Source of the DNA: a bacterium
GTDB lineage: Bacteria > Patescibacteriota > Minisyncoccia > Moranbacterales > DUUL01
Length of the DNA: 64,000 nt
Assembly (NCBI GenBank): GCA_018675685.1
Contig: JABGXP010000014.1
Coordinates: 81,288 to 145,287 of the forward strand
Reading direction: 5' to 3'
The translations under genes and the position numbers were made by a program. The notes under the pieces were generated by a model. It made no database searches, was not told the origin of the DNA, and saw only the letters and a program-made list of their open reading frames with translations. Shown here in pieces: positions 18,496 to 37,040 of this stretch (its first letter is position 1; each line of letters starts with the position of its first letter).

Positions 18496-20169
18496 CTATA
18501 ACCCTAGGAATCCGCCTCTATCAATTAGCTTTGAGCTATGAAGCCTTAGTTGACCATCAACGGATTTCTTGGAGTACAAAAGTTGAGTGTTTTTATCATA
18601 AATAACATCCCTGTTCTCTATTTCGACATCATTCTTTTGAACATTAACAAGCTCGATATGATCACGAGTATCAATCCCCGAAGACTTCACGGTGTCTCCA
18701 ATTGTAAAGAAGATGTTCTCATAATCTTCTATCCATTGAACGTTATAGATTGGAGCAGATGATCTGGTGATCATAAATTTCTCACCCTTTTCCCTGATTG
18801 GTTGGACCTCCCAGTCTCGTAACATAACGTACCAAATTTCATTATCACTCCAATATAAAAGCTTCTTCCCATCATCAGAAAATTGAATATCTTGAATTTC
18901 TCCTGAAAGTTCCTTGATGGAAACTTCACCTTCCTCTTTTTCATAATTAAAAAGAAAGAGTTTTTGATTAGGCGTCATGATTGCAATCCTGTATTGATCA
19001 TAAGTAACCATTTTTACAAAAGAGTCCTTATCTGTAATCGTTAAGATGCTGGCAATTTGTTTCTTAGTTTCAATATCGTTATTTTTGATTTCCCAAATTG
19101 AGTTGTCGACCAAATGGAAATAATAGATTCTGTTACCAGCAAAATCAAAGCCACCAACCTGATTGTCTAGTAAGAGTGCCTGATCTGGTTTTTGAATATC
19201 AACATAAAGAAGCTCGTGGTTTTTTGTTAAAATGACCAACTCATCGTTTTTATTGAACATCCAGCGAACTTGCTTGAACTCTATTTTATCAGAAGCATTT
19301 TCCGTAACATCATCTTTTATTTGTGTGGTTTCTGGGATGATTGTTGCTTGGTTTGTAGAAACTTCTTCGTTTAAACTTGGCACTGTAGAGATTTTTTGAT
19401 CAGCTTTTTTGCTAATTCCTTTTTCCTTTGATGTTTCTGTTTCCAAGCCTTTCTTGATTGTTACCCCATTTTCTTCTTTAAAAAGATCGTTTAGCACAAT
19501 AATGTCTTCTAGATTTTCTTTGTCTACCTTGGCAATTATGAAAATTTTCTCACCGTCAGATGATGAGAAGGGCATAAGAATCCTTTTATTGTCGCTGCTC
19601 CATTCAACATTCTCTTTTTCAGATTGTGGGAGGAAATTGAATTCAGAAGTTTCGTATATTGTTTTCACAGAGTTATCTTCAGTATTCAACAGAGCGACAA
19701 TTCTTAAGTCATCTTTTTCTGAAAAAAGGACAACTTCAGTATTGTTTCTTGGAGAAAGAAAGAATTGTTTTACATTTTCAACGATAAATGTGTTTTCCTC
19801 AAGCCCTGTATTGGGAAGCAGAAGAATATTCCAAAACTCTGTTGAGATTCCGGAGTGGACATTAATTGTTTTACTCCAAGAAGTATAGCCCTCCTTTTTG
19901 CAGGCAATAGTGTGTTTTCCTGGTCTAATACCATTCAATGTATAGGACCCATTAATAACGCTTAATTTACTCTTCTTTTGTTTTTTATTATCAACATAGA
20001 TGTCTATATCTCGAGGAGCACTTTTAATGGTAATAGACCCGCTATATACAAAAATGTTATTTACTGTGTCAAAGCGATATCCTTTTGCAAAGAGTACGAT
20101 TACAGGAGCTGTTAGAAAGAACAGAATGATAAAGAACAATAAATATAATCGTCTTTGGGTAATTGTCAT
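18496..20169 (-). CDS. membrane-anchored PEGA-domain protein with a C-terminal beta-propeller-like region
   Basis: N-terminal TM. A PEGA-like domain (SAPRDIDIYVDNKK ... GSYTLNGIRPGKHTIACKKEGYTSW) followed by repetitive beta-rich sequence. Confidence 0.45.
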   Translation of the reverse strand: MTITQRRLYLLFFIILFFLTAPVIVLFAKGYRFDTVNNIFVYSGSITIKSAPRDIDIYVDNKKQKKSKLSVINGSYTLNGIRPGKHTIACKKEGYTSWSKTINVHSGISTEFWNILLLPNTGLEENTFIVENVKQFFLSPRNNTEVVLFSEKDDLRIVALLNTEDNSVKTIYETSEFNFLPQSEKENVEWSSDNKRILMPFSSSDGEKIFIIAKVDKENLEDIIVLNDLFKEENGVTIKKGLETETSKEKGISKKADQKISTVPSLNEEVSTNQATIIPETTQIKDDVTENASDKIEFKQVRWMFNKNDELVILTKNHELLYVDIQKPDQALLLDNQVGGFDFAGNRIYYFHLVDNSIWEIKNNDIETKKQIASILTITDKDSFVKMVTYDQYRIAIMTPNQKLFLFNYEKEEGEVSIKELSGEIQDIQFSDDGKKLLYWSDNEIWYVMLRDWEVQPIREKGEKFMITRSSAPIYNVQWIEDYENIFFTIGDTVKSSGIDTRDHIELVNVQKNDVEIENRDVIYDKNTQLLYSKKSVDGQLRLHSSKLIDRGGFLGL

Positions 20170-27950: not shown

Positions 27951-30650
27951 CTAAAGTGAGATCCTTAGAATATCACCATTTTTAGTGCTAATAAATGCTC
28001 GATCCTGTTTTTCATTGACCCAGAAGTGTTCAGCATCTATGAATTTTTCACTGAATTTTTTCACTGTCTCCGATTGATTGCTCTTTAAAATCTTCATAAG
28101 AACCCCGTTTTTTGAGTCCAAAGAATATATATTACTTGGTTGAGACCTAGTTTCGATATCGACAATTCTTGTCTCTTCATAATCATCATTTTTTGCAGAG
28201 AAAGAAGTTTTTAATTTTCCTTCAAAGTATTGTTGAATTTCTCCGTTTTCAGATGCCACCAAAAGTGAATCATCAACCGCTAAGTCAATTGCTGCTGAAA
28301 AGAATTGTTGGTTCGGTATCCTGATTTTATAATTATGAAAACCTCCTGGTTTGCGAGGAAATTGATAGATATTCTTTGAATTATTATCAAGAATATAAAG
28401 ATATTGGAGATAAACCCCAGCTCCTCCAATGGCAAGATTGTTAGGGAGTTTAATATCAACATCTGTAAAGCGATTTGTTACGGGGCTATAAGAAAAAACA
28501 CGCTTTTCTGAAATAAGGAAGACCAGTCTAAGGGTCGGCATAGATACAAGTGTTTTGGTTTCTTTCATATCATTCTTAAGAGGGACTTCTTTCAAATTAT
28601 TATTGGTGATGTCTAATCGGAAGAATTTTCCTGAAGCTGTGAGGATGAATAATTCGTCCTTATCTCCAGTTAAAGCTTTAATCTCCTCATTAACAGCTGC
28701 TATTGTTGTTGTTTCTGTCTCACTTTCGGAACCTCCTCTTTTTTGATCATTTATTATCTCGGTAGTTGAGGTTTCATTGAAAGCTTTATTTCCAATTAAT
28801 TTAGACAAAAATGAGAATAAGAAAATCAACGCCAAGAGAGAAATCGTGCCTATAAGAATTATTTTTTTGTATTTTCTTGTAAGCAAAACAAACTTTCTCT
28901 TGAGTCTCCCCAAATCTTTTTGTTTTGAGATTGCTATAACAGAGGTAATTGAACTCGTCATGGCATCTCGAAAAGAAGTTTTTATTTGTGTATCAGTTGG
29001 TTTTGTACTTTCGCTGGCAATGTTATTTCCCTTCCCGATTCTCTTCTCTCCAGAGACAAGAGAATTAATCTTAGCATGCATAGCTGTGTAGAGCTCCTTG
29101 ATTTTTTCTGTCAATTTAAGGAATATAGACTTTAGCTCATTCAGAATCCTTTGAAAATCAATTAAATCAAGTTTCTCTTTCACTTTTTTTAAATAGACGC
29201 CAATGGTTCTTCGAACACTCTTGGCTTGTTTTTCTTTAAATGTAGACTCTTCTTTTTTTCGTATCTCTCCATTTTTTACACGCATAAACTCTCTTTCTTT
29301 ACGAATCGTTTCTTTTTCTGCCTCCATTTTTTCTTGCTCCTCTAGTTCTTTCGATGGTTCAATGGGGTAGGATATGCTGTTATTGAAAGAGAGGTCTTTT
29401 ATGTTGTCATCTGATTTCCCAAGCTTAATTTTCGAAATTAAAGGGATTGAACTTGCTGAAATATTGTTATTTTTTTTCAAATCCTCAAGAGTTTTTTTGG
29501 CTTTATTTAAAATAGAATTAAAGCTCTTCTCATTGGTGTCGTCAATTTCCTTCATTTCAAGAACTTCTTTATTCCCATCAGCTTCTTTAATAAAAAGTTC
29601 CGGTTGCTCTTCAAACGGAGAAATAGGAGATGATCCCACAGTTTTGTTTTTTTGTTCCGTAGGCGCAGTTGGTTTGTTCGGAATATTCACTGCCCCTTTC
29701 TTTGCCTTTTTAGACAATTCTATTTCTCCGTCTCTTGTCTTTTTTGGTATTAATGAGGAGATTGGGGCCTCTGTCGTGATACTAACTTCTTTGTCTTTGG
29801 TATTTTTAGTCTCCTGTTCTATGTTTTTTAGTGAGCGGCATCTTTTGCCTAGAGAGGTCTTTGGAGTGAACGCTTCACTTTCTCCAAAAAAATTAAGCTT
29901 TGCGAGATCTTTTTCTTTTGGAGCCGAAGTCACGCTTTTCTCTTTGATGTTAGTGATAACAACCCCCACATCCTCTCCCTCTAAGTCCAAAGTTGATTTG
30001 AGAATATTATCAAATTCACTGGAAGTAAAGGTTTTTGTGTGGCGAGTGATTTCCTCCCAAGAAAGGGAGTCAAAAAGTTTCTTTGTTGAAAAAATAAGTT
30101 TATCTCCAATTGAGAGTTCACCATAAGAAATATCAGAAAATGTTTTCACAGGGTGCACGTTTTTTTCCTCATTTAACCCCTTTGATATTTCAGCAATTTT
30201 TTTATTCTTGGAGAGAAAAATTTGTCCATTCCCAAGCTTAGTAAAATGGAGTTCATTTCCGCTGATAACTCCAATAACAGCATCTAAATTATTGATCCAG
30301 TTTGTTATTTCATGTTGAGCAAGATCCTCTAATGCCAGGTTGATCTTATTAAGGGCACTTCCAAAACTTTCCTCTGTTCCCCTGTTTGGTTTTAAGAAGA
30401 ATTCTCGCTTAATCACCTGGGAAAGAAGATTCGGAAGATAGGCGGATCCTTCTGAGTTGTCATTACTTCTGATTATACCAAAAAGGTCTCCCAATTTACG
30501 TTGGGCTGGATTCTCTCCCTCAAAATGAAAAGTGTTTGAAAATGGTTGCAAAGCTTTATCTTTACAGACCGCCACCAAGAAGGAATCTAATTCAATTTCA
30601 ATTTTAGATTTTTTTTCTTTAATATTGTTGTGCATAGCAAAATATTTCAA
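27951..30650 (-). CDS. large bitopic membrane protein (N-terminal cytoplasmic domain, coiled coil, central TM, C-terminal extracytoplasmic beta-rich domain), hypothetical
   Basis: An 899-aa ORF with a single central TM (IILIGTISLLALIFLFSFL). The N-terminal roughly 230 aa are globular, followed by a K/E-rich coiled coil. No confident family call. Confidence 0.4.
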   Translation of the reverse strand: MKYFAMHNNIKEKKSKIEIELDSFLVAVCKDKALQPFSNTFHFEGENPAQRKLGDLFGIIRSNDNSEGSAYLPNLLSQVIKREFFLKPNRGTEESFGSALNKINLALEDLAQHEITNWINNLDAVIGVISGNELHFTKLGNGQIFLSKNKKIAEISKGLNEEKNVHPVKTFSDISYGELSIGDKLIFSTKKLFDSLSWEEITRHTKTFTSSEFDNILKSTLDLEGEDVGVVITNIKEKSVTSAPKEKDLAKLNFFGESEAFTPKTSLGKRCRSLKNIEQETKNTKDKEVSITTEAPISSLIPKKTRDGEIELSKKAKKGAVNIPNKPTAPTEQKNKTVGSSPISPFEEQPELFIKEADGNKEVLEMKEIDDTNEKSFNSILNKAKKTLEDLKKNNNISASSIPLISKIKLGKSDDNIKDLSFNNSISYPIEPSKELEEQEKMEAEKETIRKEREFMRVKNGEIRKKEESTFKEKQAKSVRRTIGVYLKKVKEKLDLIDFQRILNELKSIFLKLTEKIKELYTAMHAKINSLVSGEKRIGKGNNIASESTKPTDTQIKTSFRDAMTSSITSVIAISKQKDLGRLKRKFVLLTRKYKKIILIGTISLLALIFLFSFLSKLIGNKAFNETSTTEIINDQKRGGSESETETTTIAAVNEEIKALTGDKDELFILTASGKFFRLDITNNNLKEVPLKNDMKETKTLVSMPTLRLVFLISEKRVFSYSPVTNRFTDVDIKLPNNLAIGGAGVYLQYLYILDNNSKNIYQFPRKPGGFHNYKIRIPNQQFFSAAIDLAVDDSLLVASENGEIQQYFEGKLKTSFSAKNDDYEETRIVDIETRSQPSNIYSLDSKNGVLMKILKSNQSETVKKFSEKFIDAEHFWVNEKQDRAFISTKNGDILRISL

Positions 30651-31138: not shown

Positions 31139-31165
31139 TTAGCAGTCGATGGGGTAGAGTGCTAA
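31139..31165 (+). promoter_or_regulatory. CIRCE operator (HrcA binding site)
   Basis: TTAGCAGTC-N9-GAGTGCTAA versus the consensus TTAGCACTC-N9-GAGTGCTAA, with one mismatch. It sits 23 nt upstream of the hrcA ATG. Confidence 0.8.
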
Positions 31166-32023: not shown

Positions 32024-32956
32024 ATGATGAACTTAGGGAGAAAAATTAAAAATAAGCAACAAACCGAAGATAAGATGAAAAAAGATAATTTTGATTTTGA
32101 AAACAGTAGTATACGACCGATGGCAATTACAGTGAAGATTGTAGTTTTAAACTCCGATCAGAAAGTTCTTCTCTTAAAAAGGAGCAAAAAGTCTTTGAAT
32201 CCGAAGAAATGGGACTTGCCGGGTGGGCATATCGACGAAGGAGAGTCTATAGAAGAAACAATCAAGAGAGAGGTCTTGGAAGAAACAGGGCTTTCTGTAG
32301 AGATTGGGCCAATCATCAACGTAGTTGAGTTTGCCAAGGATCACAAGGCATTTAAAGAGGAAAAAAGAGGTTTGCGATATATTGCACTAACAACTGATAC
32401 GGAAGTTGTACTAAACGAGGACGAGCATTCAGAATTCAAATGGCTTTCCTTTGATGAAGCAATTGCTAGCTTGGAAGACAAGGGGTTTGAAGGGGAGAAA
32501 AAACAAACCATCAAAGAAGCGAAAAATCGAATGGAACTCGAAAAATCATTAAATGGTTGGCACAGAACACTAGCCGAGTTTGATAATTTTAAAAAGAGAA
32601 CTGAAAAATCAAATGATGAATTCCGAAAATTTTGCCTCGAAAACTTTATCATGGAACTTTTACCAGTAATTGACAACTTTGAAATGGCAACGCAGCATAT
32701 TCCGACAGAACAACAGGAAGAGGGATGGGTTGTGGGCGTGATGCATATTAAAAATCAACTACTTGGAGTTTTGGAGGCTAATGGAGTGACAGAAGTTCCC
32801 ACCGCAAAAGGAGATGATGTAAATGAATCGATCCATGAGATACTGAAAGCTTCAGAAAAAAAAGATGGTGAAGGCGGAAAGGTTAAGAAGGTTTTGAAGA
32901 AGGGGTATCAAATCGAAAAGCGGATAATTCGACCAGCGACCATTGAAGTAGAATGA
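32024..32956 (+). CDS. grpE: NUDIX hydrolase - GrpE fusion protein (nucleotide exchange factor with an N-terminal Nudix domain)
   Basis: Canonical Nudix box GHIDEGESIEETIKREVLEETGL (Gx5Ex7REUxEExGU) at residues about 66-88. GrpE core from about residue 170: AEFDNFKKRTEKSNDEFRKFCLENFIMELLPVIDNFEMA ... KGYQIEKRIIRPATIEV. It is a single uninterrupted ORF. Confidence 0.8.
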   Translation: MMNLGRKIKNKQQTEDKMKKDNFDFENSSIRPMAITVKIVVLNSDQKVLLLKRSKKSLNPKKWDLPGGHIDEGESIEETIKREVLEETGLSVEIGPIINVVEFAKDHKAFKEEKRGLRYIALTTDTEVVLNEDEHSEFKWLSFDEAIASLEDKGFEGEKKQTIKEAKNRMELEKSLNGWHRTLAEFDNFKKRTEKSNDEFRKFCLENFIMELLPVIDNFEMATQHIPTEQQEEGWVVGVMHIKNQLLGVLEANGVTEVPTAKGDDVNESIHEILKASEKKDGEGGKVKKVLKKGYQIEKRIIRPATIEVE

Positions 32957-35049: not shown

Positions 35050-35064
35050 TTCGGTTCTAGATAG

Positions 35065-35096
35065 ACGGGGGGCATCAGAGTGCCCCCCGTTTGTTC
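35065..35096 (+). terminator. rho-independent terminator of the dnaK operon
   Basis: acggggggca-tcagag-tgccccccgt followed by ttgtt: a 10-bp GC-rich stem. Confidence 0.75.
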
Positions 35097-35285
35097 TAAA
35101 GAGGAACTTTATTGAATTAAGGACTGAGGAGAACATAGTCATTACATATGTAAGTACACATGTAATGACATCACAACCTAGATAAAATTTAAGTACAAAA
35201 TCTTTCAAGTCAAAGATGAACACATGTAGTGTTAATTTACAAAAAGGGAATAAAACTAAATTAAAAATAATTAAACCCCAATAAA

Positions 35286-35591
35286 ATGAACCAAAACCAA
35301 CAACCCCAAGCGGGTCAACAACAAATCCAGATCAAAGCCAATGATGAGGATTTGAAGGGGAAGTATTCAAACACAGTCCAGATGATGCACACTAAAGAGG
35401 AATTTGTTTTAGATTTTTTGAATATCTTCCCTCCAACAGGCACACTCAATTCACGTGTGATTGTTTCTCCTTCACATTTCAAAAGAATGACTGCTGCAAT
35501 GAGCGACAATTTGAAGAAATATGAAGAGAAGTTCGGAAAGATCAAGGACGTGAAAGGGGAGGAAAGTGGAAAAATGGGATTTGTGGGATAG
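35286..35591 (+). CDS. hypothetical small protein (Q/N-rich N-terminus)
   Basis: A 101-aa ORF. It possibly resembles DUF3467-type proteins (EFVLDF motif) often found near dnaK, but this is weak. Confidence 0.35.
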   Translation: MNQNQQPQAGQQQIQIKANDEDLKGKYSNTVQMMHTKEEFVLDFLNIFPPTGTLNSRVIVSPSHFKRMTAAMSDNLKKYEEKFGKIKDVKGEESGKMGFVG

Positions 35592-35615
35592 GAAAAAACT
35601 AAAAACGCCGAGTTA

Positions 35616-35650
35616 GTCAACTGCGCAATTTTTTAATTGGGCAGTTTTTT
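35616..35650 (+). terminator. rho-independent terminator after the 35286..35591 gene
   Basis: ctgcgcaatt-tttt-aattgggcag followed by a run of seven T. Confidence 0.5.
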
Positions 35651-35747
35651 TATTTGCTAAAAAGATGAAAACGTTGTATCATCTGAAGTTGGAATTTTAG
35701 ATTTTAACGAGTACTTATTTTAAATATTTTTTTTACGGGGGTGTATC

Positions 35748-36450
35748 ATGATGGGGGGCAATCAAGAACGTGTTTGGAAACCAGTTTTTGAAATCGACAC
35801 AAGTAAAGAACCTTTTTTAACTCAAAGGATGCCAAAACCAGGAGTCTTGCATGAACTTTTTCGTTTGATGTTAAACCTAAGAGTAGTTCATTACGTTACT
35901 GATGATTTTTTGGAAGAATACAGTCCATCATTGGCAATGTTGGCAAAGGTTGAAGTTAGCAGGGGTTTCAATGTCTTTGTTAAAAAAAATTACCAGCAAG
36001 AAAAGAGTTGCAGAAACACTCAGACTTTTGCGGAAAGGAGTTATTGCTAAAGCAGTCTTTGAAGCCGATGGGTACTTCCAGGATGTCTCGTTCTGCTTTG
36101 GGTCATTTTGTTTTCACGCTGGACCTGATGATATGGATGGACGGGAAAAGGTGCTTGCAAACGACATCAAAATCTTTGACGGAGTGGAGATTGTCTTTGA
36201 TTACGAGCGTTGGAAGAACGGATCCCATTTGTCATGGGGCGTTGAACTTTCCTTTGGGTGGGCAAACACTCTTGAACTTGGGTGTAAAGGCTCAATACGA
36301 GCAGATTCAAGGGAAGATACCATCAATGCATTGTTGGCGTATCTGAAAGAGGGGAAGAAGCACATTAAACCTCGCTTTCAAAAGGATCGCAAAAAACTGA
36401 TTGAGGCATTGAATCGGTTCGGGGATTCATATTGGTATTTCAAAATTTGA
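35748..36450 (+). pseudogene. GC-richer gene of unknown function interrupted by a +1/-1 frameshift at an A8 homopolymer (35982-35989)
   Basis: Frame 0 ORF 35748..36050 and frame +1 ORF 35902..36450 both read as protein-like and overlap across the A8 run. Removing one A fuses them into a protein of about 234 aa. Local GC is visibly higher than the surroundings. Confidence 0.45.
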
Positions 36451-36470
36451 GCAGTAAGCGCAAATGCGCG

Positions 36471-36510
36471 AGAAGACTTGGTCTAATTTAGATCAAGTCT
36501 TCTTAATTTA
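36471..36510 (+). terminator. rho-independent terminator
   Basis: agaagacttggtc-taattta-gatcaagtcttct (13-bp stem with one G-U pair) followed by a T-rich stretch. A second long palindrome at about 36519-36556 (aacaggaccctttgaaatttcaaagtgtcctgtt) probably terminates the convergent minus-strand gene. Confidence 0.55.
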
Positions 36511-36618
36511 CAGATAACAAAAAACAGGACCCTTTGAAATTTCAAAGTGTCCTGTTTAGAAGAGATGAGAGAATTATTTTTTACACAAGTCCATTTTAGG
36601 TTCTTTCCCCACTAAATT

Positions 36619-36885
36619 TTAGCCTTGCATTGCATCTTTGATGATCTCCACAGTACCTTCATTCGAGATTTTTTCCAAGAGATTACGTAGTTGCTTTTCC
36701 AAATAGCTGGTTTCGGAAAAGATCATATCGACTAGGTGTTGTGGATCAACATCCCTGCCAAGTCCTATCTCCTGAATATAATCCTTAGTAGCTCCACTTA
36801 ATTTTTGCGTAGAAATAGCAGTTATTACAACCAACTTTGTAAGATCCGAAATGACCGTTGCTTGTTTTTTGAGCTTGCTATCCAT
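36619..36885 (-). CDS. hypothetical small cytoplasmic protein
   Basis: The start was chosen at MDSKLKK, with a GGGAGGG RBS 8 nt upstream. No recognisable motif. Confidence 0.35.
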   Translation of the reverse strand: MDSKLKKQATVISDLTKLVVITAISTQKLSGATKDYIQEIGLGRDVDPQHLVDMIFSETSYLEKQLRNLLEKISNEGTVEIIKDAMQG

Positions 36886-37040
36886 GACCCCATCCCTCCC
36901 TTTTTGGTGTACGCAATAATGTGCACGAAAATTCAAACTAAAAAGTGCTATTGAATGATTTATTTATATACCATATAACAAGATTTGTCAATAGAATAAA
37001 ATGAAGAAGCTATTACCTAGTAAAGAGGTTTTTCTCTATC

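What the first reader, a model, noticed from the sequence alone, without database searches (positions are those of the whole stretch)
35640..36450. GC-richer gene disrupted at an A8 homopolymer: pseudogene, sequencing error or phase-variable switch
Two protein-like ORFs in frames 0 and +1 overlap exactly across aaaaaaaa (35982-35989). Deleting one A yields a continuous protein of about 234 aa. The region stands out compositionally (runs such as ggggtgtatcatgatgggggg) and is bracketed by strong terminators on both sides (35616-35650 and 36471-36556). This is consistent with an inserted accessory gene. Homopolymeric A tracts are classic slipped-strand phase-variation sites.
Basis: seen in the sequence. 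Interest (0 to 1): 0.5.

Follow-up and report, generated by a model that had tools for sequence, protein, structure and literature searches.

The report
Frameshifted orphan gene, probably a young pseudogene
A small gene of unknown function in an uncultured Patescibacteria (CPR) bacterium is broken by one extra A in a run of A's; the break is real and fixed in every public assembly, and it looks like an ordinary recent gene inactivation, not a genetic switch.

Summary
An A8 run (35982-35989) splits one gene into ORF1 (35748-36050) and ORF2 (35902-36450). Removing one A gives a 233-aa protein that aligns end to end with an intact 232/233-aa orthologue (64% identity) in the closest related genome. 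That orthologue reads GTT AAA AAA GTC at the site, so A7 was the in-frame state here and A8 is a +1 insertion.

It is not an assembly error. All 19 loci from at least 17 independent assemblies (ENA, Logan, NCBI) carry A8. No A7 or A9 version exists in a 15-billion-protein collection, so phase variation has no support.

The population is nearly clonal (0-0.6 differences per kb), so the absence of further decay says little. Programmed recoding signals are missing: the shift is not conserved, there is no stimulatory RNA structure, and the run is shorter than the 9 nt or more used by known slippage sites. In-frame A8/A9 runs are tolerated in other genes of the window.

The family is tiny and accessory. 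It is duplicated in one relative and absent from the same slot in another. No Pfam, PDB or fold match was found.

Best reading: a young pseudogene made by replication slippage. A low level of rescue by slippage, or a restart at the internal ATG, cannot be excluded.

The parts
35619..35653 (+). Intrinsic terminator (hairpin 35619-35646 plus U7) that ends the upstream hrcA-grpE-dnaK-DUF3467 unit. It separates the gene from the heat-shock operon.
   Evidence: strand folding (-15.6 kcal/mol, z -2.5); sequence
35654..35682 (+). Promoter-like site TTGCTA-N17-TATCAT, conserved as TTGCCA-N17-TATTAT in the orthologous locus.
35683..35747 (+). Conserved leader. It contains the motif AGTACTTATT (35710-35719, unique in the 64 kb), a T8 run (35727-35734) and the Shine-Dalgarno sequence GGGGGTG (35737-35743). 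The upstream region is about 79% identical to L008, against 69% for the coding sequence.
35748..35988 (+). N-terminal 80 codons of the ancestral gene (frame 0). dN/dS against the intact orthologue is 0.12.
35982..35989 (+). A8 homopolymer: a +1 insertion relative to the in-frame A7 state. The orthologue has AAAAAAG here.
35990..36050 (+). Out-of-frame tail of ORF1 (20 codons, NYQQEKSCRNTQTFAERSYC, then stop at 36048-36050). It has no homology to the family.
35961..35973 (+). SD-like AGGGGT (35961-35966), a 4-nt spacer, then ATG 35971 in the +1 frame. This is a possible restart site and is the start NCBI uses for its 159-aa annotation. It is absent in the orthologue (AAC ATT).
35990..36450 (+). 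C-terminal 153 codons of the ancestral gene (+1 frame) plus the TGA stop. dN/dS against the orthologue is 0.17. It starts with the family's most conserved motif, ITSKKRVAETLRLLRKGVI.KAVFEADGYF.
36470..36511 (+). The gene's own terminator: a 16-bp stem followed by a U-rich tail. The population SNP 36493 T>C turns a G.U pair into G-C.
36522..36557 (-). Terminator of the convergent minus-strand gene 36619-36936 (the U6 run lies on the minus strand). It is not part of this gene.

Best explanation
This is a monocistronic accessory gene with its own conserved promoter/leader and terminator. It encodes a 233-aa cytoplasmic alpha/beta protein of an uncharacterised, very small family. In this lineage of a Patescibacteria (Moraniibacteriota-related) bacterium, it was inactivated by a single A insertion in an A7 run (AAA AAA ATT became A8), the classic product of replication slippage. 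The mutation is fixed in a nearly clonal population.

Ribosomes starting at 35748 make an 80-residue native N-terminal fragment plus 20 missense residues and stop at 36048. The C-terminal 153 codons are translated only rarely, if at all. So the locus is a young, not yet decayed pseudogene.

Shown: the lesion, its fixation, the intact ancestral frame, long-term purifying selection before the lesion, and the absence of recoding signals. Inferred: loss of function, and replication slippage as the cause.
For: (1) The intact orthologue P0002/P0009 (232/233 aa, 64% identity, 100% coverage) sits in the syntenic slot of the closest relative and reads GTT AAA AAA GTC ACC, in frame.

(2) Both halves show old purifying selection (dN/dS 0.12 and 0.17, dS about 1.7). 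The shift is therefore recent relative to the divergence of the two genomes.

(3) 19 of 19 loci have A8, on all four haplotypes of the nearby SNPs. No A7 fusion exists among 15 billion proteins.

(4) The population is nearly clonal: 0-0.6 differences per kb over 5-12 kb in five of the six long loci. Fewer than one further mutation is expected in 703 bp, which explains the lack of decay.

(5) No recoding signals were found. The shift is not conserved. The 121 nt around and after the run have no special structure (z +0.76). The zero-frame codon after the run is an ordinary AAU. The nearest SD-like element is 16 nt upstream.

(6) Restoring the frame needs -1 A or +2 A, whereas slippage at homopolymers gives mainly +1 insertions (PMC5574713). 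Selection against runs typically starts at 9 nt (PMC1088944). In this window, about 14 other A8/T8/A9/T9 runs sit in frame inside long ORFs, including priA and grpE. This implies slippage at A8 is low in this organism.

(7) The gene is dispensable. It is absent from the same slot in L011, and the tandem paralogue present in L008 is missing here.

(8) In the AF2 model the break lies between strand 74-80 and helix 84-95, inside the best-predicted core (pLDDT 83-91).
Against: There is no second lesion. Promoter, leader, SD and terminator are all intact and conserved. The lesion is fixed in every sample, and that pattern is also what is reported for slippage-rescued genes in insect endosymbionts (PMC3017870).

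An SD-like element followed by an ATG (35961-35973) could allow separate translation of the C-terminal part.

The only in-gene variants are two singletons, so no population test of relaxed selection is possible. No read-level or RNA-level data could be examined.
Confidence: 0.65

Rival explanations
1. Leaky or 'rescued' gene. The frameshift allele is still functional at a reduced level. RNA polymerase slippage on the A8 run (mRNAs with A7 or A10), or +1 slippage of tRNA-Lys on AAA AAA A, yields some full-length 233/234-aa protein. This is the situation described for poly(A) frameshifts in Buchnera and Blochmannia.
For: There is a single indel in a homopolymer and the gene is otherwise intact. 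It is fixed in all assemblies. Regulatory regions are conserved. An analogous situation is documented in reduced genomes, with about 30% in-frame transcripts (PMC3017870; PMC5009743). Patescibacteria also have reduced genomes (taxon).
Against: The run is only 8 nt, whereas the documented cases use 9-12 nt. The frame needs -1 or +2, while +1 insertions dominate slippage. Many in-frame A8/A9 runs in essential genes of the same window argue that slippage at this length is low here. It is the only homopolymer-linked disruption in 64 kb. The shift is not conserved in the orthologue. Near-clonality explains the lack of decay without invoking selection.
Confidence: 0.13
2. Split gene. Both pieces are made and work together or separately: ORF1 (100 aa) from the native start, and a 159-aa C-terminal protein from ATG 35971, which is preceded by the SD-like AGGGGT. 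This is how NCBI annotates the locus.
For: AGGGGT, 4 nt, then ATG resembles the gene's own SD arrangement (GGGGGTG, 4 nt, ATG). NCBI MAGs annotate 100-aa and 159-aa proteins. The break falls in a short loop between secondary-structure elements.
Against: The ATG arose by chance from AAT GTC and is absent in the orthologue. The break bisects the best-predicted compact core, immediately before the family's most conserved motif. No family member elsewhere is naturally split. Ribosomes translating ORF1 run over the restart site.
Confidence: 0.08
3. Phase-variable (contingency) gene. The A-run length switches between A7 (ON) and A8 (OFF) by slipped-strand mispairing, and the sampled populations happen to be predominantly OFF.
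For: A homopolymer lies inside the coding sequence at the exact point of frame change. The gene is accessory and sits in a variable slot. Consensus assemblies hide minority variants.
Against: 19 of 19 loci have A8 and there is no A7/A9 allele in any database. An A8 run is not unusual in this genome: 11 A8 and 8 T8 in 64 kb. The orthologue has an interrupted A6G run, so there is no conserved long tract. The protein has no Pfam, PADLOC or PHROG match and no recognised surface or R-M character.
Confidence: 0.07
4. Sequencing or assembly artefact: the true sequence is A7.
For: Homopolymers are error-prone on some sequencing platforms.
Against: A8 is identical in 19 loci assembled by different pipelines from different runs (SPAdes-style NODE contigs, MEGAHIT k141 contigs, Logan contigs and an NCBI MAG). 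The other A8 runs in the window are read in frame.
Confidence: 0.01

Closest known systems
Poly(A)-tract frameshift alleles in reduced endosymbiont genomes (Buchnera, Blochmannia), partly rescued by transcriptional slippage (as summarised in PMC3017870 and PMC5009743)
   Same: A single indel in an A-run of an otherwise intact gene, in a small AT-rich genome, present in all sampled populations with no further degradation.
   Different: The tract is 8 nt, not 9-12. It is the only such case in 64 kb. The gene is a dispensable orphan, not a core gene. The frame needs -1 or +2. No transcript data exist. The population is near-clonal, so conservation carries little weight.
Ordinary young pseudogenes created by replication slippage at homopolymers (first step of gene erosion)
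   Same: A +1 insertion in a mononucleotide run; an intact orthologue in a relative; loss of the neighbouring paralogue; patchy family distribution.
   Different: Nothing essential differs. The only point is that no second lesion has yet accumulated.
Slipped-strand phase-variable contingency loci (e.g. Neisseria, Haemophilus, Campylobacter, Helicobacter, Mycoplasma; from general knowledge)
   Same: An intragenic homopolymer whose length sets the reading frame.
   Different: No length polymorphism was seen in 19 assemblies. The tract is short and ordinary for this genome. It is not conserved as a long tract in the orthologue. The gene is not a recognisable surface or restriction-modification gene.
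Programmed transcriptional slippage or +1 ribosomal frameshifting (Thermus dnaX A9, Shigella mxiE/spa13, IS elements, prfB)
   Same: Two overlapping frames joined at a slippery run.
   Different: The two-frame layout is not conserved. The run is under 9 nt. There is no stop or rare codon at the A site, no SD stimulator at 3 nt, and no downstream structure.

Membership tests
Homopolymer-slippage pseudogene (young, unitary) | Reading frame disrupted relative to an intact orthologue by an indel in a mononucleotide run | tested here: met
   The window has A8; L007/L008 have an in-frame A6G. The fused frame aligns over 233 of 233 residues.
Homopolymer-slippage pseudogene (young, unitary) | No compensating recoding signal, and the disruption is not conserved across species | tested here: met
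   No structure, no SD at the stimulatory distance or slow A-site codon, and the orthologue is intact.
Homopolymer-slippage pseudogene (young, unitary) | Relaxed selection or further decay after the lesion | tested here: inconclusive
   There is no second lesion. However, the population is near-clonal (0-0.6 differences per kb), so none is expected. There are only two singleton nonsynonymous variants and no synonymous ones.
Homopolymer-slippage pseudogene (young, unitary) | No full-length product made | not testable with these tools
   This needs RNA-seq or proteomics.
Phase-variable contingency locus | Simple-sequence tract in the coding sequence or promoter that controls the frame or expression | tested here: met
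   The A8 run is at the frame junction.
Phase-variable contingency locus | Tract-length polymorphism between or within populations | tested here: not met
   19 of 19 loci have A8. No A7-type protein exists in the collection. Minority variants within reads could not be examined.
Phase-variable contingency locus | Tract unusually long for the genome and maintained in orthologues | tested here: not met
   There are 11 A8 and 8 T8 runs in 64 kb. The orthologue tract is A6.
Programmed transcriptional slippage site | Run of 9 or more A/T (the typical threshold) | tested here: not met
   The run is A8. The threshold comes from PMC1088944.
Programmed transcriptional slippage site | Two-frame architecture conserved among homologues | tested here: not met
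   P0002, P0009 and P0010 are each a single ORF. L009 is also a single frame when read with TGA=Trp.
Programmed transcriptional slippage site | Heterogeneous mRNA population at the run | not testable with these tools
   No transcript data are available.
Programmed +1 ribosomal frameshift (prfB-like) | Slippery P-site codon followed by a stop or rare codon, with an SD-like stimulator about 3 nt upstream | tested here: not met
   The sequence is AAA AAA AAU UAC. The nearest SD-like AGGGGT ends 16 nt upstream of the run.
Endosymbiont-type poly(A) frameshift rescued by polymerase infidelity | Single indel in a poly(A) tract, gene otherwise intact, shared by separate populations | tested here: met
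   The weight is limited because the population is near-clonal.
Endosymbiont-type poly(A) frameshift rescued by polymerase infidelity | Long tract (9-12 nt) and several such genes per genome | tested here: not met
   The tract is A8, and it is the only disrupted ORF at any A/T run of 8 or more in 64 kb.
Known protein families (Pfam, NCBIfam, PADLOC, PHROGs, PDB) | Significant sequence or fold match | tested here: not met

The most novel reading that the evidence does not exclude
The population-fixed A8 frameshift is not a dead allele but an expression attenuator. A minority of transcripts or ribosomes slip on the A8 run and produce low levels of the full-length orphan protein. If so, this would be the first example of slippage-dependent decoding in a Patescibacteria/CPR genome, analogous to the endosymbiont poly(A) cases.
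Probability: 0.1. Interest if true: 0.45.

Novelty: new member of a known kind. Interest (0 to 1): 0.15.

Why it matters
The main value is practical. Public annotations, including the NCBI MAGs, list this locus as two hypothetical proteins of 100 and 159 (or 182) aa. They are in fact the two halves of one 233-aa gene, and the intact form exists in a sister genome.

The case also documents gene erosion in progress in a variable slot next to the dnaK operon of a CPR bacterium. It defines a tiny orphan family (orthologue, tandem paralogue and one UGA-recoded distant member) with a family-specific leader motif.

If slippage rescue were shown, it would extend the endosymbiont 'polymerase infidelity' phenomenon to CPR bacteria. 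Nothing here requires that.

Tried and rejected
- More relatives: an exhaustive phmmer search of 1.84 billion representatives gave 4 hits. The profile search found nothing new. Genome, metagenome and viral contig scans with the family profile found nothing.
- Frameshift-stimulating RNA structure around and downstream of the run: none (z +0.76).
- Rfam and tRNA scans of the window: empty.
- HrcA/CIRCE control of the gene: rejected. The only CIRCE is at 31139-31165, before hrcA.
- Recent horizontal insertion: rejected as stated. The gene is syntenic in the closest relative, and the GC excess is only z about 2.
- Population dN/dS: not feasible, with only two singleton variants.
- Sample provenance from the literature: no paper in the library cites the accessions.
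- The 194-aa 'stop-loss' variant P0005 was not reproduced by the DNA of its contig L017.

Full report
**Observation.** The window has AAAAAAAA at 35982-35989. ORF1 (35748-36050, 100 aa) and ORF2 (35902-36450, 182 aa, +1 frame) overlap across it. Removing one A gives a continuous 233-aa protein.

- 35619-35646 plus U7 ends the upstream hrcA-grpE-dnaK-DUF3467 unit.
- 36470-36504 (-28 kcal/mol, z -7) ends this gene.
- 36522-36557 has its U-run on the minus strand and serves the convergent gene 36619-36936.

The compositional contrast is modest: 41.1% GC against 36.5%, z 2.06. The quoted G-run is the Shine-Dalgarno sequence GGGGGTG plus Met-Met-Gly-Gly codons, also present in the orthologue.

**One gene, not two.** The fused protein has no Pfam, NCBIfam or PDB match. 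In 5.8 billion proteins it finds only two things:
- P0001, which is the window's own ORF2.
- P0002, an intact 232-aa protein, 64% identical over 100% of the query.

P0002 and its 233-aa variant P0009 lie on Logan contigs L007 and L008. Synteny with the window is conserved: dnaK (94% aa), DUF3467 (92%), this gene, a small minus-strand gene, then a membrane protein (54%). At the site, the orthologue reads TTT GTT AAA AAA GTC ACC AGC, in frame. The ancestral in-frame state in the window lineage was therefore A7 (…AAA AAA ATT ACC…), and A8 is a +1 insertion.

Family-invariant residues flank the junction (F77 | T82 S83). Both halves carry the signature of long-term purifying selection against the orthologue: dN/dS 0.12 and 0.17, with dS about 1.7. 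The true frame has no stops in 80 and 152 codons, against 3-11 in the other frames.

**Real, and fixed.** ORF2-type and ORF1-type proteins occur on dozens of contigs from ENA, Logan, JGI and NCBI. NCBI MAGs annotate them as two hypothetical proteins of 100 and 159 aa.

I mapped 19 loci from at least 17 assemblies made with different pipelines. All have A8, with no gaps. The exact A7 fusion is absent from a 15-billion-sequence collection, and no other-length variant appeared in any search. A8 is found on all four combinations of the nearby polymorphisms (36493 T/C; 36531/36548 C-T or A-G). This excludes an assembly error and gives no support to phase variation at the consensus level.

The population is nearly clonal, with 0-0.6 differences per kb over 5-12 kb in five of the six long loci. 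Fixation and the lack of a second lesion are therefore also what a recent neutral or slightly deleterious mutation would show.

**Recoding?** The evidence is against programmed recoding.
- The two-frame layout is not conserved: the orthologue, its paralogue and the distant member are each read in one frame.
- The 121 nt around and after the run fold no better than shuffles (z +0.76).
- The zero-frame codon after the run is an ordinary AAU, and the nearest SD-like element ends 16 nt upstream.
- Restoring the frame needs -1 A or +2 A. Transcriptome-wide data show that slippage at homopolymers yields mostly +1 insertions, and no frame restoration was detected in Buchnera (PMC5574713).
- Selection against runs typically begins at 9 nt (PMC1088944).
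- The window has 44 A7, 11 A8, 1 A9 and 0 A10 runs. About 14 other A/T runs of 8-9 nt sit in frame inside long ORFs such as priA and grpE. That argues that slippage at A8 is low here.
- This is the only homopolymer-linked ORF disruption in the 64 kb. In Blochmannia, by contrast, 8 genes per genome are affected, in tracts of 9-12 nt (PMC3017870).

A low adventitious level of rescue cannot be excluded.

**Accessory character.** By HrcA, the nearest GTDB genomes are 'Patescibacteria group bacterium UBA2772' (82%) and a 'Candidatus Moraniibacteriota' MAG (81%). The window otherwise carries ordinary chromosomal genes: PBP, Mur ligase, PriA, NrdD and F-ATPase.

In the Moraniibacteriota MAG (L011), DUF3467 is followed by a single minus-strand ORF and then the membrane-protein gene, with no homologue of this family. 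In L008 the slot holds an extra minus-strand gene, the intact gene and a tandem paralogue, P0010 (34% identity). So the slot is variable. The family is present twice in one relative, absent in another and frameshifted here, which fits ongoing loss.

Only one more family member exists anywhere: L009/P0011, from a JGI metagenome.

The promoter-like TTGCTA-N17-TATCAT and the leader are more conserved than the coding sequence (about 79% against 69%). There is no CIRCE operator at this gene.

**Alternative products.** An SD-like AGGGGT, a 4-nt spacer and ATG 35971 in the +1 frame could allow a 159-aa C-terminal product. That ATG is a chance by-product of AAT GTC and is absent in the orthologue.

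**Verdict.** The locus is an ordinary, recent frameshift inactivation (replication slippage, A7 to A8) of an accessory orphan gene in a near-clonal CPR population.

| Reading | Confidence |
|---|---|
| Young pseudogene | about 0.65 |
| Low-level slippage rescue | about 0.13 |
| Functional split gene | about 0.08 |
| Phase variation | about 0.07 |
| Artefact | about 0.01 |

Read pile-ups, metatranscriptomes and metaproteomes would decide between these.

Noticed in passing
L009:257-904 (JGI 3300036543, Ga0377180_036282): The distant family member is annotated as a 155-aa fragment (P0011). Reading from ATG 257 with TGA=Trp gives a 215-aa ORF. Its two in-frame TGA codons (codons 5 and 208) both align with Trp columns of the family (the 'WKPV' motif and the C-terminal 'W-Y-x-K'). 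The ORF then ends at a TAA followed by a hairpin and T-run terminator. That contig therefore probably comes from a UGA-recoded (code 4-like) organism or phage.
   Followed up: partly
window 36493, 36531 and 36548: Across about 12.5 kb, the only differences among most conspecific assemblies lie in the two terminator hairpins 3' of the gene. 36493 T/C converts a G.U pair to G-C. 36531 C>A and 36548 T>G always change together and are the two partners of the single mismatch in the palindrome 36523-36556, as if the imperfect palindrome had been flipped (reverse-complemented). All four haplotype combinations occur, which implies recurrent flipping or recombination.
   Followed up: partly
window 35710-35719; L008 4377-4386 and 5240-5249: The motif AGTACYTATT occurs once in the 64-kb window and exactly twice in L008. 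Each copy lies 35-41 nt upstream of the start codon of a member of this family (orthologue and paralogue). It is absent from L011, which lacks the family. It is a candidate family-specific operator or promoter element. The pattern was defined post hoc from these same sequences.
   Followed up: partly
window 35927 and 35937 (starts of contigs L021/L026 and L027/L028): Two pairs of short contigs from differently named assemblies start at exactly the same window positions, 45-55 nt upstream of the A-run. This could reflect re-assembly of the same reads or an assembly-graph branch. It is unexplained.
   Followed up: no
window 32024-32956: The grpE gene product (310 aa) carries a NUDIX domain in addition to GrpE, according to the precomputed Pfam hits for the identical gene in L001. 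This is an unusual fusion inside the hrcA-grpE-dnaK operon, and it is conserved at 68-73% in the Patescibacteria relatives L010 and L011.
   Followed up: no
window 31139-31165: A near-perfect CIRCE operator (TTAGCAGTC-N9-GAGTGCTAA, 1 mismatch) lies just upstream of hrcA. It is the only one in the window.
   Followed up: yes
L008 1165-3823 versus window 35050-35750: The closest relative has three extra orphan genes (245 aa, 271 aa, and a minus-strand 231 aa) inserted around DUF3467, between dnaK and this gene. They have only faint PHROG or PADLOC hits. The region downstream of dnaK is a hotspot of gene-content variation in these CPR genomes.
   Followed up: partly
window 27951-30650 (-) and 18496-20169 (-): Large ORFs of 899 aa and 557 aa have no Pfam match at E below 1e-5. 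The 899-aa protein is conserved (about 56% identity) next to hrcA in L010 and L011.
   Followed up: no
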